A stretch of 64,000 nucleotides of DNA from a phage (GCA_011911785.1 GCA_011911785.1_4084.1); one strand, 5' to 3'; shown: positions 7,838-22,300, counted from the first letter of the stretch. Notes: generated by a model not told the origin, from the sequence alone. Numbers and translations: made by a program.

Positions 7838-8959
7838 ATGATGAAAGGAAAATATTTTTTCATTGAGAACAAACAAGAAATTGAAATCCAAGAGTTTGAT
7901 TACCAGTTTGTGTTGAATTCATTACTGAAAAAGTATGATCGTCGCGACAATAAAAAGTACTTTTATAATGTAATCGTAAAACGTACTTATGATTCAATGG
8001 GAAATCCCGAATTTGATGTTCGTAATTTAGAACTATCAAAAATTTACTATTCAAACACACGTTTGAATATGTTAGATCTCATGAAAGATGAAATTCATTT
8101 TAAAAATATTCAGATTCGTGATTTACCAGTGCCCCCACTTGAGCGTGAATACGAAGCATGGAAAGAAGGTCGTCTTAAACCACGTCCAGAACTTGCAGTG
8201 GTTGAAGTGCCAGCACCAATTGTTCTGACTAAAACACCAATTGATCCAGAAGATGAACGCATTGCGGATATCGAACAATGGATGGAATTTCCTGAAACTA
8301 TTAAAAAGGATTCTGTAAAAGTACTGGATTGGTTCGTAAACTTACCAGTATGTGCACAGGAAGTTGGTGTGAAGATTCAAAAAATTTCAGAGCGTCAATT
8401 GGACCTTAATGATGCATTACATAAGCATAGTGATTATGTTAGAACATTAATGAATAACTTAACCACTGCACTTGAATCGTTATTCCCATTGAAACCAACA
8501 TTTACACAAAAACTGTTTGGTAAAGCTGATATAAAGGTTCAACAGGCCGATTTACCTAAAGTAATGAAAGCATTGAATGATGCAGTGAAATATGATACGA
8601 ATAAGTTTAGTGGTTTAACTTCATTGTTTAATGAAATTCGAACTGAAGTTCGTGATATTAAAGATGAATTAGAATACGGAAAAATTGGGTGTGAGTATGC
8701 TATTCGTCGTTTGGATGATGCATTTGAATATGAACTGACTCTTGAACGTATCATGAAAATGAGCATTACCGCCGCAATGACTGAAGCTAGTATCGTTAAT
8801 GTGAGTAAACAGTATCAGATTGATATGAATAGAATGGTAGATATCCAAACTATTACTATTCCGTTGATTATCAATCGTTTACAGACACAAGTTGGAAAAG
8901 CAGTAGACGCAGATACCGCCGCGATCATTCGCAACTTAGCTTACGGCGATAAAGAGTAA
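7838..8959 (+). CDS. hypothetical protein (373 aa)
   Basis: ORF with RBS aaaaagaggctgATG downstream of a promoter. Confidence 0.6.
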   Translation: MMKGKYFFIENKQEIEIQEFDYQFVLNSLLKKYDRRDNKKYFYNVIVKRTYDSMGNPEFDVRNLELSKIYYSNTRLNMLDLMKDEIHFKNIQIRDLPVPPLEREYEAWKEGRLKPRPELAVVEVPAPIVLTKTPIDPEDERIADIEQWMEFPETIKKDSVKVLDWFVNLPVCAQEVGVKIQKISERQLDLNDALHKHSDYVRTLMNNLTTALESLFPLKPTFTQKLFGKADIKVQQADLPKVMKALNDAVKYDTNKFSGLTSLFNEIRTEVRDIKDELEYGKIGCEYAIRRLDDAFEYELTLERIMKMSITAAMTEASIVNVSKQYQIDMNRMVDIQTITIPLIINRLQTQVGKAVDADTAAIIRNLAYGDKE

Positions 8960-8968
8960 AAATAGTTG

Positions 8969-8997
8969 TTGACATAACTGTGTGTTGCTCGTATAAT
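8969..8997 (+). promoter_or_regulatory. sigma70-like promoter with dyad symmetry around the -10
   Basis: TTGACA, 17 nt, TATAAT; inverted repeat GTGTTGCTC / GAGCAACAC brackets the -10. Confidence 0.6.
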
Positions 8998-9044
8998 GTT
9001 TATCACAGAGCAACACTATCTTAAATTAAATGAGGAATAACCTA

Positions 9045-10172
9045 ATGTCCGAGAAAGAAATCAATCCAAAAAAAGCAACTACCAAAACTTCTAAGCGTAC
9101 TACGACCAAAACCAAAGGTAATACTTTTGATGCGAGTGATATTTTCGACCAACAGTCTAAGACGTTACCAGTACTGAAAGATACAAAAGGTAACACTATG
9201 TCTTTAACTGTTCAGAACATTAACACCATTGGAACAACTGCTGGTGCAGGTGTCGGACGACTGGCTGATGAAATCATGTCAAAAGTGAACGTCACTGATG
9301 ACAATACTGAATTTGGTAAATCAATTACCACAATTTTATCACTAACCCGTGCTGTTGATATTGACAGTCTACAAGATGATAAATCAATTGTAGGTTGGGT
9401 CAAAAAACTCTTTGTCAATGCAAAACAGAAAGTTGGTGATCAGTACAAGAATAGTAAAGAGCAGATTGATGAAATCATGAACACACTCCAGGTTGGTATC
9501 AATCGCCAACATAGTGAATGTGAGTGGTTGGATACTGCTTACAATGAGAATAAAGCCTATCTATTTGAATTACGCGATACGCTGGTTGAATTGGAACAAG
9601 TTACAAAAACTCAAGATGCTAAACTGGAAGAAATGCAAGCGAACCCTGATGTGGATTCTTTCGCAATCCAAGAGCAGAAGATGATTTGTGAAGCATTGTC
9701 TAAACAGGAAGATAAGATTCGCCGTCTTATCATGATGTGTGAGCTTAGTGGCCCTCGTCTGATGAGTATGAAGAAAGTGAATCTAAACACTGTATCTAAA
9801 TTTGAAGATCTGAAATCTGTTGTCATCCCTGCATGGAAATCACAACTAGCAGAACAATTGATTTCTGAACGCCAACGCAAAGATAATGAGTTGGGTAATT
9901 TGATTGATAATGAAACTAACCGTTTACTTGAAGTGAACTCCAAAATGGTAGCAACTAATATGTTAGATGCTGCTAAAGCTAATAACCGTGGTATTGTGGA
10001 TATTAAAACATTGCGTAACGTACACAAAACAATGATCGATAGCATCGAAGCAGTACTGATTGAAGAGAAGAAAGGTAAGGAAGAACGTGAACGTGCTAAA
10101 CATGAAATTGCACAGTTGTCCTACGAACTTGAAGAAACTCTTCGCGAAATTGCTGACAAAGCTAACAAGTAA
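9045..10172 (+). CDS. hypothetical coiled-coil protein
   Basis: Start refined to ATG 9045 (RBS tgaggaataacctaATG); K/E-rich heptad-like C-terminal half. Confidence 0.55.
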   Translation: MSEKEINPKKATTKTSKRTTTKTKGNTFDASDIFDQQSKTLPVLKDTKGNTMSLTVQNINTIGTTAGAGVGRLADEIMSKVNVTDDNTEFGKSITTILSLTRAVDIDSLQDDKSIVGWVKKLFVNAKQKVGDQYKNSKEQIDEIMNTLQVGINRQHSECEWLDTAYNENKAYLFELRDTLVELEQVTKTQDAKLEEMQANPDVDSFAIQEQKMICEALSKQEDKIRRLIMMCELSGPRLMSMKKVNLNTVSKFEDLKSVVIPAWKSQLAEQLISERQRKDNELGNLIDNETNRLLEVNSKMVATNMLDAAKANNRGIVDIKTLRNVHKTMIDSIEAVLIEEKKGKEERERAKHEIAQLSYELEETLREIADKANK

Positions 10173-10175
10173 TAG

Positions 10176-10204
10176 TTGACATATAAATGTGCCCATTGTA
10201 TAAT
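10176..10204 (+). promoter_or_regulatory. sigma70-like promoter with hairpin-embedded -10
   Basis: TTGACA, 17 nt, TATAAT; inverted repeat ATGTGCCCATT / AATGGGCACAT flanks the -10, followed by T-rich tract. Confidence 0.6.
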
Positions 10205-10237
10205 GGGCACATATTTTATTAATTATCTAAGGATAAT

Positions 10238-10939
10238 ATGATGGCAGATAAAGTTACACACTATGCAGTTGATATTGAATCTTTCGGAACTCCAGAACGT
10301 AGTGGTTATGATATTACCATTCCAAATTACGCAATTGTTTTAGTTCCAACTAACCCAATGAAAGATATCTCACGTTATGCATATGTTAAACTACCATTCC
10401 AAAAACAAATTGATGCTGGTCTTAAAGTTGATGCAGGTTCAATGAACTTTTGGATGAATATGTGTCAAAATGATCATAAAGGTGCATATGAAGAAGTAGT
10501 TAGTACACTCACGTTGACAGAACCAGAAATTATTTCCGGTAGTCAAAACAATTTGTATAAAACAAAAAATGTACTTGATTTGTGGAATGCACTTCGTTAT
10601 GATCTTAATGGAAATGAGAACAATATTGAAATTTGGGGTAATGGCTGTCACTTCGATTGTAGTATTCTTCAAGCAAACCATCGTAAAATGTTTGGTGTGG
10701 GCGAATTGTGGAAATACAATGCACCACAGAATGCCCGAAGTGTTAAGAATCGCCTAACTGAAGATGAAAAATTTGACATGGATTCCATTGTTGATGTACA
10801 ATTGAAAAAGTTTGTGGAGATGGTTGCTGATCATGGTCTTTATGGTCTAGAACTTCACCACCCATTATTCGATGCAGCACGTGAAGCTATCCAGGTTTCA
10901 TATTGCTTAAATGCAATCAACGAACGCGGAAACTATTAA
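10238..10939 (+). CDS. DEDDh-type 3'-5' exonuclease (DnaQ/DexA-like)
   Basis: Exo I-like YAVDIESFG, Exo II-like WGNGCHFDCSIL, Exo III-like HHPLFDAAREA. Confidence 0.6.
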   Translation: MMADKVTHYAVDIESFGTPERSGYDITIPNYAIVLVPTNPMKDISRYAYVKLPFQKQIDAGLKVDAGSMNFWMNMCQNDHKGAYEEVVSTLTLTEPEIISGSQNNLYKTKNVLDLWNALRYDLNGNENNIEIWGNGCHFDCSILQANHRKMFGVGELWKYNAPQNARSVKNRLTEDEKFDMDSIVDVQLKKFVEMVADHGLYGLELHHPLFDAAREAIQVSYCLNAINERGNY

Positions 10940-10949
10940 AGGTAACACA

Positions 10950-12047
10950 ATGAACTTAGCAATTCTTCTAATACCAAGTTTGATAGTTGTTCTAATCATG
11001 AAGTTCAAATACCATACTGCCATAACAACAAAGGAATTGCTAATTCATACTGGAATTTGCTTTCTTGCAGCGGTGTTGGTATTGGGAACATCATACTTGA
11101 TAAACTACAGCCAACTTCGTGATGTTGAAATTCTAAATGGTCAGGTTACAGAGAAATACAGCCAACGTGAGAACTGCACATCACAATCAAGTTCTTGTAA
11201 ACACTATACTTGGCATGAGCGTTGCTGGACTACCTATGATTCTAAAGGTCGCTCACAACGTGAATGTGAATCTTATAAGGTATTCGACTATCCGTATGAG
11301 ATTGATTGGTACGTTAAAAGCACTGTTGGTAAGTTTGAGATTGAAAGGGTCAATAGACAAGGAACACAAACTCCACCACGCTGGCAAGAAGTGAAAATTG
11401 GTGATTATGCAGCAGCAGAAAACACATACATAAATTATCTATTTGCAGATAAACACTCATTATTCAGTACTGAAGATTTGATTTCTATGTATGATAAAGA
11501 ATATCTGGAATCTTTACCTGAATATCCAAGTATTAGTGATTATTATAAAACACACCACGTTATTAATAAAACTGATTACGATGTGAGTGGGTATGATGAA
11601 TATTTACGTGAAGTGTTAAAAACATTAGGTGCACAAAAGCAAGTAAACATTCAAGTACTAGTATATGATTATCATGACGTGAATTTTGTTGATGCAGTAA
11701 CCTCAATCTGGCGTGGTGGCAAGAAGAACGATGTGATTATGTTCTTTGGTATCAGTAATGATGGTGTCGTTAAATCATTCAATAGTACGTCATTCGCTAA
11801 AGGTATGAATAATGAAGAATTGCATTCTAAAATGCGAATGGATGCGTTAAATGAAGTATTAACACTTGACTTACTTAAAGTTCAGGTTCATAATATACAG
11901 ACTAAGTTTGAACGTCTGTCGAATAAAGAGTTTGAATACATGGCAGTTAAAATGGAACCACGAAAAGATGTTATGATTGCTGCATCTTTGATTCTCATTG
12001 TACTGTCGATTGTTGTTGGTCTTTATATGAAGGAAAATAATGTATGA
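10950..12047 (+). CDS. membrane protein (N- and C-terminal hydrophobic segments)
   Basis: Start refined to ATG 10950; hydrophobic stretches at both ends. Confidence 0.55.
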   Translation: MNLAILLIPSLIVVLIMKFKYHTAITTKELLIHTGICFLAAVLVLGTSYLINYSQLRDVEILNGQVTEKYSQRENCTSQSSSCKHYTWHERCWTTYDSKGRSQRECESYKVFDYPYEIDWYVKSTVGKFEIERVNRQGTQTPPRWQEVKIGDYAAAENTYINYLFADKHSLFSTEDLISMYDKEYLESLPEYPSISDYYKTHHVINKTDYDVSGYDEYLREVLKTLGAQKQVNIQVLVYDYHDVNFVDAVTSIWRGGKKNDVIMFFGISNDGVVKSFNSTSFAKGMNNEELHSKMRMDALNEVLTLDLLKVQVHNIQTKFERLSNKEFEYMAVKMEPRKDVMIAASLILIVLSIVVGLYMKENNV

Positions 12048-12598
12048 ATAAGCCTCTGATTTTGTTGGTTGGTGTGTTGGTGATTTTTGTTATTGGTGTG
12101 TTTGCAACTGTAAGTATGTATAGTTCAGCACATGATAGTGCAGTGAATTTTGAAGGTAATATTAAAAAGTACTACGATGCATCTGAAAGTCAACTGAGCA
12201 GTTATACACTAACTATTCAAGAAAAGGTTCAAGTATCGGACAAATATAAGGATGCATTGAAAGAGACAATCGAAGCGTACTTTAAGGGACGTGAAGGAGT
12301 TGATCAGAAATTTGTAATGTCACAGATTCAACAACAAGTTCCAAATCTTGATCCTAAGATTTATCAAGAGTTGATGGTTACAATTGATGCAGGGCGTGAG
12401 AAGTTCAATAACTTGCAGAAAATGAAAATTGAACAATGTACTGATTATGAGAAATTCCGTAAAGGTTTCTGGAACTCAAAAATCATCGATTCTAATACAT
12501 TCCCAAGTAAAGATATTGAACATTTGTGTACTGTTGTTTCTGATACTCGCACTAAGAAAGCAATGGAAACTGGTATTCAGGAAGTAATTAAATTGTAA
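12044..12598 (+). CDS. membrane-anchored protein (184 aa)
   Basis: Single N-terminal hydrophobic helix; ATGA overlap with upstream gene. Confidence 0.55.
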   Translation: MNKPLILLVGVLVIFVIGVFATVSMYSSAHDSAVNFEGNIKKYYDASESQLSSYTLTIQEKVQVSDKYKDALKETIEAYFKGREGVDQKFVMSQIQQQVPNLDPKIYQELMVTIDAGREKFNNLQKMKIEQCTDYEKFRKGFWNSKIIDSNTFPSKDIEHLCTVVSDTRTKKAMETGIQEVIKL

Positions 12599-12603
12599 GT
12601 ATT

Positions 12604-12633
12604 TGGGGAGTACATTATTGTACTCCCTTTTTA
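12604..12633 (+). terminator. intrinsic terminator
   Basis: GGGAGTACA-loop-TGTACTCCC hairpin followed by TTTTT. Confidence 0.65.
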
Positions 12634-12647
12634 ATAGGATATAAACT

Positions 12648-13229
12648 ATGTTTTATAATGAAACTCTTAAGTTGTTCGAGCGTATAGCAGAAATCAAAAA
12701 GCGTGCATATGATAATATAATTCTTCCTTATAGTTTTGAATCAGATACTATAATTTTTAAAATGAAACATCATGCTCGTCATTATGAATTTATTTTAGGG
12801 ATAAAAGAACCTAAAATTGAATCCAATGTTCCAAATATATCATCATCTATCGCAGTTCCAAGCGGTGTAAATATTGCCCACGGTCATCCAATGACAATTG
12901 CGGCAACTTCATCCAATACGATTATTGAGCGTTATATTAAAGTTTGTACAACAACAGCTATGCAAAATATCATATCAGTTGAGTGGAGTGAACTACCAAG
13001 TAACTTCATTTACTTCACCAATAGTAATGGTACAACATCTGAGAAAGAATCTATGGGTAATAAGATTATGTCAGCTATGATTCTACATGAAAAAACGCTT
13101 ATCAATGGTGAAATATATTCATTAGAAGACAATCCAGATGCATTTATTAAAGACATTGAGGGTTCCAATAAATTTAGTATTTTAGAAGTATTAAATCTTG
13201 AAAAGGATTATAAACATGCAATACGATAA
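12648..13229 (+). CDS. hypothetical protein (193 aa)
   Basis: ORF following a terminator. Confidence 0.55.
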   Translation: MFYNETLKLFERIAEIKKRAYDNIILPYSFESDTIIFKMKHHARHYEFILGIKEPKIESNVPNISSSIAVPSGVNIAHGHPMTIAATSSNTIIERYIKVCTTTAMQNIISVEWSELPSNFIYFTNSNGTTSEKESMGNKIMSAMILHEKTLINGEIYSLEDNPDAFIKDIEGSNKFSILEVLNLEKDYKHAIR

Positions 13230-13746
13230 TAAAGATCTACCATATCTCCCCGATCTGGAAAGAGGTGTTAATGAGTTCGTTCAGGTAATATCAGAGTGGG
13301 ATGTATCAGTATTTTCATATAATCGTAAGAAGGATTTCGAATATAAAGGCGTTCATTTTTTTATCACGGATAATTTAATAACCCTGCAATCTAAAATAGA
13401 AATGTTTGGATCTTTAGACCCCATATATCGTCAGCCATATTCTGATCCATACAAAGAAAATATTGCAAGAATGTTTGAAAATAGAACAAGACAATATACC
13501 CGAAATTATTTTGGTACTTTCGATTTCACTAAAAAAGGTACATTGGTTGGATATACCATATCAACAGAATCTTTCACATCTATACATAGTGTGATTCTTG
13601 GTGAGAAAAAAATGTTAGTTAATAATGAAGATTGGTTAGACCGTGAAAATTTTCATGAATATGCATTTCAGCATTCTGTAGCAAATCCAAAAGAACCATT
13701 TGATGTGTTCTTTATTTCTAATGTATTAAGAATGTTAGGAGAATAA
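13216..13746 (+). CDS. hypothetical protein (about 176 aa)
   Basis: Start refined to ATG 13216 with RBS aaaggattataaacATG. Confidence 0.5.
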   Translation: MQYDNKDLPYLPDLERGVNEFVQVISEWDVSVFSYNRKKDFEYKGVHFFITDNLITLQSKIEMFGSLDPIYRQPYSDPYKENIARMFENRTRQYTRNYFGTFDFTKKGTLVGYTISTESFTSIHSVILGEKKMLVNNEDWLDRENFHEYAFQHSVANPKEPFDVFFISNVLRMLGE

Positions 13747-13747
13747 T

Positions 13748-14101
13748 ATGTTGATTTACTTATGTGTGCTTTTGGTTTCATTGGTTGTAGCAGTATTAGT
13801 ACTGAAAACTATTTCAACTATTCGTTCTAAAATTGATAAACATCAAGAAAATTCTGTTATCGATTTAGTTATGGATTTTCCTAAAATCAGTGCAGCCGTT
13901 GTTTTTGTTGTTATGTTATTTGGAACATACTGCGTAAAAGGCTACCTCTATGGTATGTATGATTGTAGCGTTCGCTCATATTCACAAGGTGTCGAAACTG
14001 ACTATAGCTGGTACTATGGTAAGTGTCGTTTTAAAAATGAGCATGGTATTTGGGTAGATTTTGATAAACTACGCGGAACACCATCAGGTGATGAAGAATA
14101 A
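13748..14101 (+). CDS. small membrane protein (117 aa)
   Basis: RBS ttaggagaataatATG; two hydrophobic segments. Confidence 0.55.
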   Translation: MLIYLCVLLVSLVVAVLVLKTISTIRSKIDKHQENSVIDLVMDFPKISAAVVFVVMLFGTYCVKGYLYGMYDCSVRSYSQGVETDYSWYYGKCRFKNEHGIWVDFDKLRGTPSGDEE

Positions 14102-14595
14102 TGTTTGAATTTCCTGATGAACAACCAAAAAACTACATTGACTGTACTGAAGATGGATACACGCATATCAATATCTACAGTAAAGGGAAAACTAAGCTAG
14201 GGAGAGATTTATCTAATTTTTCTCCCCATAGCTTTACACTAGAACCATATGGATGGTTTCCTTCGGTTGAGTCTTTTTATTTCTGGTTCCTCACTGGACA
14301 ACAGCATGAAGAACTTAGAAAGGTATCAGGAGCCGCAGCGAAAGCCGCTGCAAACAAATATATGCATGACCGTATAGAGATGACACCTGAGCGATTAAAT
14401 GTAATCCAGGATGCGATATGTGCTAAAATAATGCAGAATCCTGAACTTGCTGAACGATTGCGTAAAAGTACTCTGAAGTTTGAGCATTATTATTTGTATG
14501 GTGGTAAGATTATTGATGTTAGTGATGACCACCGTTGGTTTGTTCAGACCTTTGAGGATATCAGAACAGTACTGAAGGAGATGAATAATGGATAA
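14101..14595 (+). CDS. NADAR-domain protein (YbiA-like)
   Basis: SNF...F...S.E..Y core and C-terminal KF..ELAERL..EHY pattern resembling E. coli YbiA. Confidence 0.55.
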   Translation: MFEFPDEQPKNYIDCTEDGYTHINIYSKGKTKLGRDLSNFSPHSFTLEPYGWFPSVESFYFWFLTGQQHEELRKVSGAAAKAAANKYMHDRIEMTPERLNVIQDAICAKIMQNPELAERLRKSTLKFEHYYLYGGKIIDVSDDHRWFVQTFEDIRTVLKEMNNG

Positions 14596-14863
14596 AGTGA
14601 AAATTTGTTGTCTTGAATGTGAGATGTTTGTCACTCCGTCTGATACAATGTTGACAATAGAGGAACAAGTCTTTCCATTAAGAGGTGGCTATATAAAATT
14701 ACCAACACCATTTTATAGTACATCTTGTTCAATATGTGGTAATGAACTTGTTCTTCATGAGTTGAATCACGTTAATATTATGGTTGTAAATGCAATTAGT
14801 TCGTATGCAAAAGAATTGGTTAGAAATGACAGTTCATTTGCACATTTATGGGGTTTCAACTGA
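14588..14863 (+). CDS. zinc-ribbon small protein
   Basis: Two CxxC pairs (CCLECEM / CSICGNE). Confidence 0.5.
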   Translation: MDKVKICCLECEMFVTPSDTMLTIEEQVFPLRGGYIKLPTPFYSTSCSICGNELVLHELNHVNIMVVNAISSYAKELVRNDSSFAHLWGFN

Positions 14864-14864
14864 T

Positions 14865-15137
14865 ATGAATCATTCAAGAACTTGTTGGATATGTTACAAT
14901 AAGGATGTAGATCATACTCTTGAACTTGAATATATGGAGATGAACTATGCAACAGACGTAAGATCATTTTCTGCTGGTCGTGTTATAATAAAAACACCAC
15001 AATATCAGTGTTTGTGTTCAGTGTGTGGTGGGAATGGTGTATATCGCAATGAGGTTCAAATGGTAAATGATGCTATTGAGCTTTATTTTGGACAATATGT
15101 TTTGGATTTATATAAAAATGAACAAACTAACATTTGA
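14865..15137 (+). CDS. zinc-ribbon small protein (paralog of 14588..14863)
   Basis: Start refined to ATG 14865; CWIC / CSVCGGN pairs. Confidence 0.5.
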   Translation: MNHSRTCWICYNKDVDHTLELEYMEMNYATDVRSFSAGRVIIKTPQYQCLCSVCGGNGVYRNEVQMVNDAIELYFGQYVLDLYKNEQTNI

Positions 15138-15348
15138 TGCAACCCCAATAAATGAACTTTTAGTGCCCAGTGAAGGAAGCACTGTTAAAATGAACATGTA
15201 CTGGATTGTCAAAGATGGAAATGTATTCAGACATAAAATAACAAAAGTATGGCAATGTAACAAAAATGAAAGTATTGTTAAGATGATAGCTAATACTGTA
15301 GATGGTGCTGAAGTTGTTTTTATGCCGTATGCATATATTAAGGAATAA
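15118..15348 (+). CDS. hypothetical protein (76 aa)
   Basis: Start refined to ATG 15118. Confidence 0.45.
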   Translation: MNKLTFDATPINELLVPSEGSTVKMNMYWIVKDGNVFRHKITKVWQCNKNESIVKMIANTVDGAEVVFMPYAYIKE

Positions 15349-15350
15349 AC

Positions 15351-15527
15351 ATGAAAAAAGAGTTGACAATATTCGTCATTCCAACTATAATGTTGATATT
15401 GGCTCTGGTGTTCCCACAATCACATGTGGTTATGCTTAACATCATAGAACTAATTTTATTGGTAATACACTGTATTGTCTGTTACTATTACATTAACAGT
15501 AATGAGGATCGTGATGAAGTATTATAA
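15351..15527 (+). CDS. possible small hydrophobic protein (58 aa)
   Basis: Untracked ORF with RBS aggaataaacATG; two predicted hydrophobic helices; overlaps a promoter-like motif. Confidence 0.3.
   Translation: MKKELTIFVIPTIMLILALVFPQSHVVMLNIIELILLVIHCIVCYYYINSNEDRDEVL
15363..15391 (+). promoter_or_regulatory. sigma70-like promoter (possibly internal)
   Basis: TTGACA, 17 nt, TATAAT. Confidence 0.45.
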
Positions 15528-15936
15528 AATTCGTATCATTACCAGTTCAGGGGCATCAGCGTGGATTTTTTATGATCTTCCAGATTCATATACCATCGAT
15601 GATGTAAAAGATTTATACTACGAAGATAACAATTGGGTTTTTGATTTAGAATCCAAAAGTGTAGAGATTGATGAGATTACTGAACAAGAATACAAGATTG
15701 GCACACAAGCTATGAAGTACTTTGAACGTAATCTTAAAATGTTACAGGAAAATGTGTTCCCTGTAAAAGAATGGGCAATTCTCCTTGCTAATTCCAATAA
15801 ACCTGTTAGAATTGGTTATCCAAACTTTCATATGGTATATCGTATGAATGAAAATCGTGAATTGAGTTATCAATTTGATTACGATGCTGCTAAGTTTGGT
15901 GTTCTGAAATCGTTTGAAAAGGCATATCCAGTATGA
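15514..15936 (+). CDS. hypothetical protein (140 aa)
   Basis: Start refined to ATG 15514 with RBS aatgaggatcgtgATG. Confidence 0.55.
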   Translation: MKYYKIRIITSSGASAWIFYDLPDSYTIDDVKDLYYEDNNWVFDLESKSVEIDEITEQEYKIGTQAMKYFERNLKMLQENVFPVKEWAILLANSNKPVRIGYPNFHMVYRMNENRELSYQFDYDAAKFGVLKSFEKAYPV

Positions 15937-16268
15937 GTAAAGATAGCAAAGAGTTTATGTTGCGTTGTACTTGTGGTGATAAAAATGAACATTGTGTTCA
16001 CATTGCACAATTTGACTTGACAGAAGAACACGGTGATGATAAACTTGGTCAATGTACAGTCAGTATGCGTTTGAATCCTTTTCTTAAATGGTACAAGCGT
16101 GTATGGGTTGCAGTGAAGTATGTTTTTGGTCGCAATGACTTTCATTACGTAGAAGCTGAAATTGATGTTGACATTCTTAAAGAAGTTGTGTTACAATTAG
16201 ATGATACACGAACTGATGAGGAAAAGAAAGACGCACGAAATAAACGTAGTGATGTGAAGGTTTTATGA
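15933..16268 (+). CDS. hypothetical Cys/His-rich protein (111 aa)
   Basis: CTCGDKNEHCVH motif; ATGA overlap. Confidence 0.5.
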   Translation: MSKDSKEFMLRCTCGDKNEHCVHIAQFDLTEEHGDDKLGQCTVSMRLNPFLKWYKRVWVAVKYVFGRNDFHYVEAEIDVDILKEVVLQLDDTRTDEEKKDARNKRSDVKVL

Positions 16269-18518: not shown

Positions 18519-18933
18519 CCTGTTGAATATTGATATCACTAAACTAAAAATTACCGATTGTGGTATGTGTGTCAATGATAAACGTAAGATTGATTATGCT
18601 ATACTTACTGATGGCAATAAATCTCTTTGGTATGATAAATCTGTAGGAATTCAATTTAGACATAGTTCTAGTACTGAAAAGTATTCAGAGACATTAGATT
18701 ACATAAGTAATGGTAGTATTATCTATGTAAAATATTCAGAATCTGGAAAAATTACAAATACCATTACATTCAATGAAAAGAAGTACTCTGAAGAAGAATT
18801 CTTTATGGTTAGTACTTTGTATGATTTTGGGTGTATCAGGTACTGTGATTATGTTAAAACATTGGACATTTCCAATAAGATCTATTCAATACTTGAGCAA
18901 TATGAAAAGGAGATTGTAGATGACAGTAAGTAA
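18508..18933 (+). CDS. EEYFQ-motif family protein (divergent)
   Basis: C-terminal SEEEFFMVSTLYDF (Q replaced). Confidence 0.5.
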   Translation: MISDLLNIDITKLKITDCGMCVNDKRKIDYAILTDGNKSLWYDKSVGIQFRHSSSTEKYSETLDYISNGSIIYVKYSESGKITNTITFNEKKYSEEEFFMVSTLYDFGCIRYCDYVKTLDISNKIYSILEQYEKEIVDDSK

Positions 18934-19330
18934 ATGTTACATTATCATTCGTGAAGACTTAGATATGCCAGTTGGGAAGCTTGCTGCTCAGGCGGGTCAT
19001 GCGGTTGATTCTATCTGGTCCACGATTACCGTTGCTGGTACATCAATTCGTGGTTGTAATGCTGTTGGTGAGAACCCAAGAGATGAAGATGAAAAGATCC
19101 TGAACGATTTCAGTACTTGGGTACAGGACGGTCGTCGCAAGATTATCTTAAAGGCTAAATCTGAAGAACAGATGCTTAATCTATTCGATAAAGTGAAAGC
19201 TGAAGGATTCACTGCAACTAAGATTCATGATTATGGATTCAACCATTTTGATGGTCTAACATTAACTGGATTCGTTGTGTTCCCGTGCACTGACGAAGTT
19301 AAAGCATTGAAAAGGGTAAGATTATGGTAG
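18920..19330 (+). CDS. PTH2-family peptidyl-tRNA hydrolase
   Basis: IIIREDLDM-PVGKLAAQAGHA resembles the PTH2 signature (R.DL.M..GK.AAQ..HA). Confidence 0.7.
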   Translation: MTVSKCYIIIREDLDMPVGKLAAQAGHAVDSIWSTITVAGTSIRGCNAVGENPRDEDEKILNDFSTWVQDGRRKIILKAKSEEQMLNLFDKVKAEGFTATKIHDYGFNHFDGLTLTGFVVFPCTDEVKALKRVRLW

Positions 19331-21439: not shown

Positions 21440-22300
21440 ATGGAACCGATACGTGTACTATCTTTGTTCAATGGGATGAGTGTAGGATATATTGCATTAC
21501 AAAATGCTGGTATAGCAGTTGATAAGTACTACTCATCTGAAATTGACAAATTTGCTATAGCTGAATCCCAGGCTAACTTTCCTGATATCATCCAATTGGG
21601 TGATGTAACCAAATGGAAGGAATGGGATATCGAATGGGACAAGATAGATCTACTGATGGGGGGTTTCCCTTGCCAAGCATGGTCAGTGGCGGGTAAACAA
21701 GGTGGATTAACTGATATCCGTGGTCAACTATTTCTGGTTATGGTTGATATATTCAATCATATTAAAAGTTTAAATCCTAACTTGAAATTCTTATTCGAGA
21801 ATGTTAAGATGAAGGAAGATTTCAAGGAATATATCAATGGTATATTGCAACTAACCCCAGTACTGATAAACTCCCAGCATTACACGCCTCACTTCAGGCA
21901 ACGTTACTACTGGTACAGTACTGATAAGTTATTCATACCACCTGCAATATCCAAAGCCCCAAAGCTTCAAGATATACTTGATGATGGTTGGTACACAGAC
22001 AGAACCGCTTCGTACTGTATTGATGCCAATTACTTCAAGGGTGGAGATCCGAATCAGTACTTCAATAAGTCAAGAAGACAAATCGTTTTCAAAGACCCTG
22101 ATATCAACAGGAACTTCCTGATTGAGAAGGGTAAACGAAATGTGGACTATCGACATTTGACAGTGCAAGAGTGTTGCATTTTACAGGGAGTTGATGTAAA
22201 CTATTTCAAAGTGTCAAGTAACACACAAGCGTACAAAATGCTTGGTAATGGCTGGACAGCACCTGTTATAGAACATTTACTTCGTGATATATTCTTTTAA
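21440..22300 (+). CDS. DNA (cytosine-5)-methyltransferase
   Basis: Motif IV GGFPCQAWSVAG, motif VI FENVKM, motif VIII-like RQRYYW, motif I-like LFNGMSVG; short (286 aa). Confidence 0.8.
   Translation: MEPIRVLSLFNGMSVGYIALQNAGIAVDKYYSSEIDKFAIAESQANFPDIIQLGDVTKWKEWDIEWDKIDLLMGGFPCQAWSVAGKQGGLTDIRGQLFLVMVDIFNHIKSLNPNLKFLFENVKMKEDFKEYINGILQLTPVLINSQHYTPHFRQRYYWYSTDKLFIPPAISKAPKLQDILDDGWYTDRTASYCIDANYFKGGDPNQYFNKSRRQIVFKDPDINRNFLIEKGKRNVDYRHLTVQECCILQGVDVNYFKVSSNTQAYKMLGNGWTAPVIEHLLRDIFF

What the first reader, a model, noticed from the sequence alone, without database searches (positions are those of the whole stretch)
14101..14595. Phage-encoded NADAR-domain protein as a candidate anti-defence or ADP-ribose-processing enzyme
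The ORF carries NADAR/YbiA-like signature segments. NADAR proteins are N-glycosidases, and members have been reported to reverse guanine ADP-ribosylation by DarT-type toxins. In a phage this fits a counter-defence role.
Basis: partly seen in the sequence, partly recalled or inferred. Interest (0 to 1): 0.6.

Follow-up and report, generated by a model that had tools for sequence, protein, structure and literature searches.

The report
Divergent NADAR-like enzyme in jumbo phage
This jumbo-phage gene, labelled "hypothetical" in databases, encodes a real but very divergent relative of the NADAR enzymes that strip ADP-ribose off DNA bases; it probably helps the phage resist bacterial defences, but it lacks one residue those enzymes need, so its exact target is unknown.

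Summary
The ORF at 14101..14595 (+, 164 aa) is real. It is gene A4_101 ("hypothetical") of an Asteriusvirus jumbo phage. Pfam finds nothing at E<=10, including NADAR (PF08719) and Phage_30_3 (PF08010). Homology to NADAR is nevertheless solid:
- The family profile hits only NADAR chains in the PDB.
- Profile-profile comparison with the T4 gp30.3 (AdfN) family gives 97.9%, E 4e-13, over 139 columns.
- Both proteins fall in phrog_652.

The protein keeps the ribose-binding Glu (E57) and the His (H129) that marks "phage NADARs". The Lys essential in AdfN and DarG1 is Leu here, and is Lys in only 27 of 166 family members.

The family is large (about 2,000 clusters at 50% identity), mostly phage-borne and unannotated. 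It is often fused to DUF4326, SLOG and Macro domains, and no ADP-ribosyltransferase domain turned up in the fusions or neighbours surveyed.

Verdict: a sister family of the known phage NADARs, most likely an orphan ADP-ribose N-glycohydrolase used in counter-defence. An anti-DarT1 role is plausible but unproven. It is a new variant of a known kind and of moderate interest.

The parts
14101..14595 (+). CDS of 164 aa: a divergent phage-type NADAR-fold protein (equals A4_101 of Escherichia phage A4)
14086..14091 (+). Shine-Dalgarno-like AGGTGA, 9 nt before the ATG. The start is coupled to the stop of the upstream ORF (TAATG at 14099-14103).
   Evidence: Read directly from the sequence.
14152..14220 (+). 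Family-specific N-terminal motif D18-F40 (DGxxHINxYSKGKTxLGRxLSNF). It ends in the LSNF segment shared with all NADARs. It carries the conserved basic residues K28 and R35.
   Evidence: Alignments A1 and A2. Column counts over 166 sequences: D18 162, G19 165, H22 162, N24 165, T31 160, G34 166, R35 134, N39 162.
14269..14271 (+). Codon of E57. It is the equivalent of the ribose-coordinating Glu of NADARs (YbiA E48, AdfN E36, PnNADAR E43, E. coli C7 E88).
   Evidence: Aligned. Present in 166 of 166 family sequences.
14290..14292 (+). Codon of L64. This position holds the diphosphate-binding Lys in canonical NADARs (AdfN K43, E. coli C7 K95, PnNADAR K50). It is not Lys here.
   Evidence: Gap-free register, E+7, in four independent alignments. 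Family counts: S38 G35 L30 K27 A14.
14341..14343 (+). Codon of K81 (the AK motif). It aligns with PnNADAR K75, one of the residues that shield the ADPr pyrophosphate. N85 sits where PnNADAR has R79.
   Evidence: hmmsearch alignment to 8BAU. K81 is present in 165 of 166 sequences; position 85 is R/K in 116 of 166 but Asn here. Residue roles are from PMC11543638.
14485..14493 (+). Codons of H129-Y130-Y131 (the HYY motif). H129 aligns with the His that replaces the catalytic Glu/Asp in phage NADARs (gp30.3 H123).
   Evidence: hhalign against the gp30.3 family. H129 is present in 164 of 166 and Y130 in 164 of 166. "Histidine in phage NADARs" is from PMC11543638, PMC11257639 and PMC12945103.

Best explanation
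The gene encodes a stand-alone, divergent member of the NADAR superfamily. It belongs to a large, Pfam-invisible sister family of the T4 gp30.3/AdfN "phage NADARs".

Shown:
- It has the NADAR alpha+beta fold.
- It keeps the ribose-binding Glu (E57), a pyrophosphate-facing Lys (K81) and the phage-type His (H129) at the catalytic strand.
- It sits in a tightly packed + strand block of small genes in an Asteriusvirus jumbo phage.

Inferred:
- It is an orphan ADP-ribosyl N-glycohydrolase, with no partner toxin, made by the phage to undo or destroy an ADP-ribose-based host attack.
- The leading candidate substrate is ADP-ribose attached to a nucleic-acid base, as laid down on guanine by DarT1-type toxins. 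E57 and H129 would position and activate the distal ribose.
- Because the canonical diphosphate-binding Lys is Leu64, the ADP-ribose diphosphate must be held differently. The candidates are the family-specific conserved basic residues K28, R35 and R73, together with K81. The substrate preference may therefore differ from that of AdfN and DarG1.

For: Sequence: the family profile hits only NADAR chains in the PDB. hhalign gives 92% against YbiA and against gp30.3 and 97.9%, E 4.4e-13, 139 columns against the gp30.3 family. The window protein (5e-43) and gp30.3 (9e-51) both match phrog_652, and YbiA also touches it at 1e-7.

Core residues conserved across 166 family sequences: E57 166, K81 165, H129 164, K109 159.

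Function by analogy: members of all four recognised NADAR families remove guanine-ADPr in vitro (PMC11125620, PMC12945103). All three phage NADARs tested (AdfN, Bas32, Bas60) counter DarTG1 (PMC11257639).

ADP-ribose context: among 89 multidomain relatives, fusions are to DUF4326 (29), YAcAr/DprA-like SLOG (19/13), DUF488-N3a (5), Macro (3) and a canonical NADAR (1). This is the NAD/ADPr network described for phages in PMC9503650 and PMC7824862.

Distribution: mostly viral. There are 241 confirmed hits in IMG/VR against 21 in 185,579 species genomes.
Against: - The Lys needed in AdfN (K43A inactive) and in E. coli C7 DarG1 (K95) is Leu64 here, and that position is Lys in only 27 of 166 family members.
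- The residue matching PnNADAR R79 is Asn85.
- No member of this family has been assayed.
- The window has no Pfam-detectable ART, Macro, SLOG, Nudix or DUF4326 gene.
- Gene neighbourhoods in 40 viral locus groups and 21 genome loci show no consistent functional partner.
- The fusion partners (SLOG, Macro, DUF4326) fit soluble ADPr derivatives at least as well as DNA adducts.
Confidence: 0.55

Rival explanations
1. It is specifically an AdfN-like anti-DarTG1 factor. It removes ADP-ribose from N2 of guanine on replicating phage DNA and so rescues infection of DarTG1-carrying E. coli. This is the first reader's sharpest reading and a narrower version of the best explanation.
For: The closest characterised relative is AdfN. 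The phage-type His is shared. Three of three tested phage NADARs counter DarTG1. DarTG1 occurs in E. coli strains. ATP-dependent DNA ligase lies within 6 kb in 5 of 40 viral locus groups, and ligase genes also lie near the T4 and phiPMW homologues.
Against: The essential Lys (AdfN K43) is absent. T4 gp30.3 and YbiA remove G-ADPr in vitro yet fail to protect against DarT1 in cells, so activity does not predict protection. No DarT linkage was found anywhere in the family. The ligase proximity may be inherited synteny.
Confidence: 0.3
2. It degrades a soluble ADP-ribose-derived molecule (an immune signal or a toxic metabolite such as cADPR isomers, ADPr-1''P or NAD-derived nucleotides) rather than a DNA adduct. 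It would act in the same pathway as SLOG, Macro and DUF4326 activities.
For: Frequent fusions in the order Macro-DUF4326-[this domain]-SLOG, for example P0035. One protein combines a canonical NADAR with this domain, which suggests non-redundant specificities. cREC, Nudix and Metallophos genes lie nearby in several loci, and there is one Metallophos fusion. [quoted passage not shown] The altered diphosphate-binding residues are compatible with a different ligand.
Against: Every NADAR assayed so far acts on base-linked ADPr in nucleic acids. No soluble-signal substrate has been shown for any NADAR apart from the YbiA-type activity on riboflavin intermediates. The window protein is stand-alone, with no such partners nearby.
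Confidence: 0.25
3. It is a catalytically impaired NADAR-fold protein that works by binding, as a sponge or sensor for an ADPr-like ligand or as a blocker of a host protein, rather than by hydrolysis.
For: It has lost the canonical Lys and the R79-equivalent. Clearly degenerate tandem paralogues exist in other phages.
Against: The window protein keeps every family-invariant polar residue (H22, N24, E57, K81, K109, H129, Y130, R155), whereas the degenerate paralogues lose them. That pattern is typical of an active enzyme. The Lys is variable across the whole otherwise well-conserved family, so it is probably not part of this family's mechanism.
Confidence: 0.1
4. It is a metabolic N-glycosidase like E. 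coli YbiA (riboflavin-intermediate or other nucleotide clean-up) serving phage nucleotide metabolism, with no role in defence.
For: The best PDB fold match is YbiA. The only NCBIfam hit is the riboflavin-intermediate N-glycosidase model. Nucleotide-metabolism genes (RNR, thymidine kinase, nucleoside hydrolase, deoxyribosyltransferase) neighbour some homologues.
Against: The TIGR02464 hit is far below cut-off (16 against 73.7 bits). The protein carries the phage-type His, not the YbiA-type Glu. By profile it is closer to gp30.3 than to YbiA. The family is almost confined to phages.
Confidence: 0.07

Closest known systems
T4 gp30.3 = AdfN (anti-DarT factor NADAR), Pfam PF08010 Phage_30_3, the "phage NADAR" family
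   Same: Both are about 150-165 aa stand-alone phage proteins. They share phrog_652. They are homologous over nearly the full length (hhalign 97.9%, 139 columns). They share LSNF, the Glu (E57/E36) and the His that replaces the catalytic Glu/Asp (H129/H123). Neither has a partner toxin.
   Different: - There is no PF08010 hit, and relatives reach only 20-30 bits against a cut-off of 36.
- AdfN's essential K43 is Leu64 here.
- This family has an extra conserved N-terminal DGxxHINxYSKGKTxLGR motif and HYY in place of HSI.
- The gp30.3 C-terminal T-L-T-x-x-E-F motif is absent.
- The host phage is an Asteriusvirus, not a T4-like phage.
- Function is untested.
E. coli YbiA (PDB 2B3W), the YbiA-type NADAR / riboflavin-intermediate N-glycosidase, Pfam PF08719
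   Different: YbiA has the E-x6-K pair and the Glu/Asp...WG C-terminal motif. The window protein has Leu at the Lys position and HYY. There is no PF08719 hit at E<=10. YbiA is chromosomal and lies in a LexA-controlled operon.
DarG1-type NADAR antitoxins (Geobacter lovleyi 8BAT, E. coli C7) of DarT1-NADAR toxin-antitoxin systems
   Different: DarG1 NADARs are about 230 aa with an N-terminal extension. They are encoded next to DarT1 and use E88, K95 and D171 plus K115. Here the protein is an orphan, the Lys is absent and the Asp position holds His. No DarT or other ART was seen among the fused domains, or among the listed neighbour families of the genome loci.
NADAR-Bas32 and NADAR-Bas60 (T5-like and Vequintavirinae phage NADARs that counter DarTG1)
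   Same: They are orphan phage NADARs outside the T4-like phages, showing that phages have recruited NADARs repeatedly.
   Different: Those were found by DELTA-BLAST through conserved-domain models and cluster with archaeal or bacterial NADARs. The window family is invisible to the Pfam NADAR model. Whether they belong to this family was not tested here.
NADAR domains fused to DUF4326, SLOG and Macro in jumbo phages and giant viruses, as described by Iyer, Burroughs, Aravind and co-workers (PMC7824862, PMC9503650)
   Same: Relatives of the window protein show exactly these architectures, for example Macro-DUF4326-[domain]-YAcAr in P0035 and DUF4326-[domain] in P0017. [quoted passage not shown]
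   Different: The window protein is the stand-alone form. The papers give predictions only (soluble ADPr derivatives). I could not confirm from held text that this exact family or this phage was in their set, because no supplement is held.

Membership tests
NADAR superfamily (YbiA-like fold) | The characteristic alpha+beta NADAR fold | tested here: met
NADAR superfamily (YbiA-like fold) | Significant sequence-profile relationship to known NADARs | tested here: met
   The family profile against PDB sequences hits only 8BAU (2.8e-5) and 2B3W (1.2e-3). hhalign gives 92% to YbiA and 97.9% to the gp30.3 family.
NADAR superfamily (YbiA-like fold) | Match to the Pfam model PF08719 (NADAR/DUF1768) above its gathering score | tested here: not met
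   No Pfam family at E<=10. None of the 16 closest homologues carries a precomputed Pfam domain.
NADAR superfamily (YbiA-like fold) | Conserved ribose-coordinating Glu (PnNADAR E43, E. coli C7 E88, YbiA E48) | tested here: met
   E57 is aligned, and is present in 166 of 166 family sequences.
NADAR superfamily (YbiA-like fold) | Conserved diphosphate-binding Lys seven residues after the Glu (PnNADAR K50, E. coli C7 K95, AdfN K43), described as largely conserved across the superfamily | tested here: not met
   It is Leu64 in the window protein. The family has S38 G35 L30 K27 A14 at this column. The register is gap-free in four alignments.
Phage NADAR family (T4 gp30.3/AdfN) | His in place of the catalytic Glu (YbiA type) or Asp (DarG1 type) | tested here: met
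   H129 aligns with gp30.3 H123. It is present in 164 of 166 sequences. The feature is as defined in PMC11543638, PMC11257639 and PMC12945103.
Phage NADAR family (T4 gp30.3/AdfN) | Match to Pfam PF08010 (Phage_30_3) above its gathering score | tested here: not met
   No hit for the window protein. Relatives P0111, P0092 and P0160 reach 30, 27 and 20 bits against a cut-off of 36. All gp30.3 relatives carry PF08010.
Phage NADAR family (T4 gp30.3/AdfN) | Same remote-homology cluster of phage proteins (PHROG) | tested here: met
   phrog_652: window protein 5.1e-43, gp30.3 9.2e-51.
Phage NADAR family (T4 gp30.3/AdfN) | DNA guanine-ADPr glycohydrolase activity and rescue from DarTG1 | not testable with these tools
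   This needs biochemistry and phage genetics. The essential AdfN residue K43 is not conserved here.
DarG1-type NADAR antitoxin | Encoded in an operon with a DarT1 ADP-ribosyltransferase | tested here: not met
   No ART or DarT domain in the window, in the fusions of 89 relatives, or in the neighbours of 21 genome loci.
DarG1-type NADAR antitoxin | N-terminal extension and the catalytic set E88/K95/D171 plus K115 | tested here: not met
   The protein is 164 aa and aligns to the core only. It has Leu at the Lys position and His at the Asp position.
YbiA-type riboflavin-intermediate N-glycosidase (TIGR02464) | Score above the equivalog-domain cut-off, and the YbiA-type Glu in the C-terminal strand | tested here: not met
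   16.1 bits against a cut-off of 73.7. His replaces the Glu.

The most novel reading that the evidence does not exclude
The family-wide loss of the canonical diphosphate-binding Lys, together with a new, almost invariant N-terminal DGxxHINxYSKGKTxLGR motif and the HYY strand, marks a NADAR-fold enzyme family with a substrate not yet described for NADARs. Candidates are a different nucleotide-derived immune signal or a different base or sugar adduct on DNA or RNA. That would make it a widespread, uncharacterised anti-defence activity present in more than 500 sequenced phages, including Asteriusvirus, RaK2-like phages, Ackermannviridae and Erwinia, Vibrio and Pseudomonas jumbo phages.
Probability: 0.2. 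Interest if true: 0.7.

Novelty: new variant of a known kind. Interest (0 to 1): 0.42.

Why it matters
Phage NADARs are a recently proven class of counter-defence enzymes (AdfN against DarTG1). This result extends the class to a large family that standard annotation misses entirely. There is no Pfam hit, and all but two of the 60 listed phage records (of 533 matched) label it "hypothetical protein"; those two call it a virion structural protein. The family includes therapeutically relevant E. coli, Klebsiella and Salmonella phages.

Because it lacks a residue thought essential for ADP-ribose binding, it is a natural test of how NADARs recognise their substrate. It also bears on whether phage NADARs act only on DNA adducts or on soluble ADP-ribose signals too. 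If the protein is active against DarT1, host-range predictions for jumbo phages on DarTG-carrying strains would improve.

Tried and rejected
- **Direct single-sequence searches.** Pfam (E<=10) and phmmer against PDB sequences gave nothing. NCBIfam gave only a far sub-threshold YbiA-domain hit. Local phmmer of YbiA and gp30.3 against all window ORFs gave nothing, and there is no second family copy in the window.
- **Genomic context in the window.** The ten nearest genes and 73 further ORFs show no ART, Macro, SLOG, Nudix, DUF4326 or NAD-salvage domain.
- **Conserved-neighbour analysis of 80 IMG/VR loci (40 dereplicated groups).** The most frequent neighbour clusters have no Pfam domain and look like shared jumbo-phage backbone genes. 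Only DNA ligase (5 groups) and PTH2 (3 groups) are nameable. I rejected this as evidence of a functional partner.
- **Species genomes.** Only 21 loci were found, on megaplasmids and MAG contigs, with mixed phage-like neighbours and no toxin partner.
- **Promoter scan.** The number of sites is not above the shuffled expectation (48 against 44.9). The two perfect consensus sites are only suggestive of early transcription.
- **Whole-genome survey of phage A4 for other ADPr genes.** I stopped after the first 50 kb, where nearly everything is "hypothetical".
- **Supplement of Iyer et al. 2022.** It is not held, so I could not check whether they list this phage's protein.
- **Literature search for DUF4326 and DUF488.** It gave nothing further.
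- **Chance similarity.** Rejected, because only NADAR structures are recovered, with a wide gap to the next hit.

Full report
**1. What is there**

The window is part of an Asteriusvirus jumbo phage. Bases 13000-16000 are 99.5% identical to Escherichia phage A4 (ON286972, 355.5 kb, host E. coli LF82). The finding's coordinates are exactly an ATG-started ORF, 14101..14595 on the + strand, 164 aa. It corresponds to A4_101, annotated "hypothetical protein".

An AGGTGA motif lies 9 nt upstream of the start. The start overlaps the stop of the preceding ORF (TAATG), and the following ORF overlaps by 8 nt. The gene therefore sits in a translationally packed block of small + strand genes. That block lies between a terminator-like hairpin (12605-12628) and a perfect sigma-70 consensus site (15363-15391). 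The overall count of promoter-like sites is not above chance, however.

**2. Is it a real gene?**

Yes.
- Close homologues (78-86% identity) occur in other Asteriusvirus and RaK2-like phages.
- tblastn finds relatives in 533 phage records: Salmonella and Escherichia Ackermannviridae, and Vibrio, Erwinia, Klebsiella, Serratia, Pseudomonas and Ralstonia phages.
- An exhaustive profile search of 1.84 billion cluster representatives finds 2,069 at E<=1e-3 and 640 at E<=1e-30.

All but two of the 60 listed phage records label the matched gene "hypothetical protein", are unannotated there, or carry no annotation at all; the two exceptions call it "virion structural protein". The nearest predicted viral structures are "uncharacterized" or "DprA-like".

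**3. Is it NADAR-like?**

Single-sequence searches fail.
- Pfam returns nothing at E<=10, so neither PF08719 (NADAR) nor PF08010 (Phage_30_3) matches.
- phmmer against PDB sequences returns nothing.
- NCBIfam returns only the YbiA-domain model TIGR02464, far below cut-off (E 0.01, 16 bits against 73.7).

Five independent lines of more sensitive evidence agree that it is.
- *PDB profile search.* A profile of 76 family members hits exactly two of 177,635 PDB sequences at E<=10, and both are NADARs: Phytophthora NADAR 8BAU (2.8e-5) and YbiA 2B3W (1.2e-3).
- *Profile against single sequences.* hhalign gives 92.4% (E 5e-7) with E. coli YbiA and 92.5% (E 4.7e-7) with T4 gp30.3.
- *Profile against profile.* Against a 39-sequence alignment of the gp30.3 family, hhalign gives 97.9%, E 4.4e-13, over 139 columns. 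That covers residues 21-162 of the 164.
- *PHROGs.* The window protein matches phrog_652 at 5e-43 and T4 gp30.3 matches the same family at 9e-51. YbiA matches phrog_1017 (1e-38) and phrog_652 (1e-7), and the window protein also touches phrog_1017 (1.4e-4).

Of its two stated refutation tests, the Pfam one is formally failed and the fold one is passed decisively.

**4. Active-site anatomy**

The literature gives the functional residues (PMC11543638, PMC11257639, PMC12945103):
- a Glu that positions the distal ribose (PnNADAR E43, E. coli C7 E88, AdfN E36);
- a Lys seven residues later that binds the diphosphate (K50, K95, K43). It is essential in DarG1 and in AdfN;
- K75 and R79 of PnNADAR, which shield the pyrophosphate;
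- a catalytic acid on a C-terminal strand. This is Glu in YbiA-type and general NADARs and Asp in DarG1 types, and it is replaced by His in phage NADARs.

In the window protein:
- E57 aligns with the Glu in all four alignments and is invariant (166 of 166).
- K81 aligns with PnNADAR K75 (165 of 166).
- H129, in an H-Y-Y motif, aligns with gp30.3 H123 (164 of 166).
- The Lys position is Leu64. In the family it is S38, G35, L30, K27, A14.
- The R79 position is Asn85, although it is R/K in 116 of 166.

The family has its own near-invariant features. These are an N-terminal DGxxHINxYSKGKTxLGRxLSNF motif, R73, K109, L-P-F-x-H-Y-Y, W146 and R155.

The window protein keeps all of them. In contrast, tandem second copies in some metagenomic phages have lost E57, K81 or H129. 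So it looks like an active member of a family whose way of holding the diphosphate differs from canonical NADARs. Which basic residues substitute is an inference; I could not inspect the model's coordinates.

**5. Context and distribution**

*Fusions.* Among 89 longer relatives, the family domain is fused to DUF4326 (29), YAcAr SLOG (19), DprA-like SLOG (13), DUF488-N3a (5) and Macro (3). There are single cases of Metallophos, an Rv2179c-like exoribonuclease and a canonical Pfam NADAR.
- P0035 is Macro-DUF4326-[domain]-YAcAr.
- P0092 carries a canonical NADAR, this domain and DUF4326 in one chain.

These are the NAD+/ADP-ribose network architectures that Aravind and co-workers described for jumbo phages and giant viruses. 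They assign them mainly to soluble ADPr derivatives (PMC7824862, PMC9503650).

*Partners.* No ART or DarT domain appears among the fusions or among the listed neighbour families of the genome loci. The family is therefore an orphan, like AdfN, and not an antitoxin.

*The window itself.* It has no recognisable ART, Macro, SLOG, Nudix or DUF4326 gene. The nameable genes nearby are a TelA-like protein, an Rv2179c-like exoribonuclease (10238..10939) and a PTH2 peptidyl-tRNA hydrolase (18920..19330).

*Other loci.* Neighbour clustering over 40 dereplicated viral locus groups gave only backbone genes, plus DNA ligase (5 groups) and PTH2 (3 groups). Metallophos phosphoesterases recur near homologues in phiPMW, Desertfox and two metagenomic contigs. 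None of this is strong.

*Distribution.* The family is overwhelmingly viral. There are 241 confirmed hits in IMG/VR against 21 in one genome for each of 185,579 species, and those 21 lie on Pseudomonas megaplasmids and MAG contigs.

**6. Most likely function**

The best-supported reading is an orphan phage ADP-ribosyl N-glycohydrolase used for counter-defence.
- Shown: the fold, homology to AdfN, conservation of the Glu, the His and one pyrophosphate Lys, and phage restriction.
- Inferred: catalysis and substrate.

The leading candidate substrate is base-linked ADP-ribose on nucleic acid. Representatives of all four recognised NADAR families remove guanine-ADPr in vitro, and all three phage NADARs tested defeat DarTG1.

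Against a simple AdfN equivalence stand the missing Lys, the SLOG/Macro/DUF4326 fusion pattern, and the fact that in vitro activity did not predict protection for YbiA and gp30.3 in one study.

My estimates are:
- about 0.55 for a NADAR-type ADPr glycohydrolase in counter-defence;
- about 0.3 for the specific anti-DarT1 role, which is a subset of the first;
- about 0.25 for a soluble ADPr-derivative substrate;
- about 0.1 for a binding-only protein;
- about 0.07 for a YbiA-like metabolic role.

**7. Comparison with the known, and novelty**

The protein works like a phage NADAR and is homologous to one. It fails two formal membership criteria (the Pfam models) and one mechanistic criterion (the Lys). 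I therefore file it as a sister family, a new variant of a known kind, rather than as a plain member of the gp30.3 family.

The concept itself is established: NADARs in phages, often in jumbo phages, as anti-defence enzymes (de Souza and Aravind 2012, as cited in PMC11543638; PMC9503650; PMC11257639). A specialist would not be surprised.

Three things are new here. The assignment is concrete for this unannotated and very widespread family. The family is demonstrably a sister of AdfN. And the "essential" Lys is dispensable in it. Interest is moderate, at 0.42.

Noticed in passing
window 21440..22300 (+); compare L001 20441..22339 (phage A4 gene A4_120): The window's C-5 cytosine DNA methyltransferase is 286 aa and uninterrupted. 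The otherwise near-identical phage A4 carries a 346-aa in-frame insertion exactly at the catalytic Pro-Cys motif (GGFP|CFPAGT...VVHN|CQAWS). This has the hallmarks of an intein, so the two phages differ by the presence or absence of an intein.
   Followed up: partly
window 10176-10212 and 15363-15391 (+): There are two perfect 12/12 sigma-70 consensus promoter-like sites (TTGACA-17-TATAAT). The first overlaps an 11-bp-stem hairpin at 10187-10212. A terminator-like hairpin at 12605-12628 is followed by a 10/12 promoter-like site at 12631-12659, just before the gene block that holds the NADAR-like gene.
   Followed up: no
window 9030..10172, 10238..10939 and 18920..19330 (+): A TelA-like protein, an Rv2179c-like 3'-5' exoribonuclease and a PTH2 peptidyl-tRNA hydrolase flank the region. 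One distant family member is fused to an Rv2179c-like domain, and PTH2 is a neighbour of the family in 3 of 40 viral locus groups. This could be a weak RNA-related link or could be coincidence.
   Followed up: partly
L046 5992..6952, L047 5992..6946, L027 4670..6549, L034 4381..6831, L051 5036..6582: In several IMG/VR phages the family occurs as two adjacent paralogues. The second copy has lost core residues (E57 to A/G, K81 to E/D, H129 to Y/V/R), which suggests inactive or re-purposed duplicates.
   Followed up: partly
protein P0092 (1415 aa; domains at 10-143, 548-699, 1185-1274): A single polypeptide carries a canonical Pfam NADAR domain, a domain of the window's family and a DUF4326 domain. 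This implies that the two NADAR types are not redundant.
   Followed up: no
L004 (952-kb metagenomic contig), around 8001..13159: A family member lies on a 952-kb contig made almost entirely of genes without Pfam hits. It is near a cREC_REC domain gene, a SocA_Panacea gene and a Metallophos gene. The nature of this very large contig (megaphage or megaplasmid) was not examined.
   Followed up: no
L092, L103, L111 (Pseudomonas megaplasmids of about 1 Mb): Three of the 21 hits in species genomes are on Pseudomonas megaplasmids of roughly 0.95-1.06 Mb, an unexpected non-phage home for the family.
   Followed up: no
window 13748..14101 (+): The 117-aa predicted membrane protein immediately upstream, translationally coupled through TAATG, is conserved in the same position in 5 related viral locus groups. 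It has no Pfam hit.
   Followed up: no
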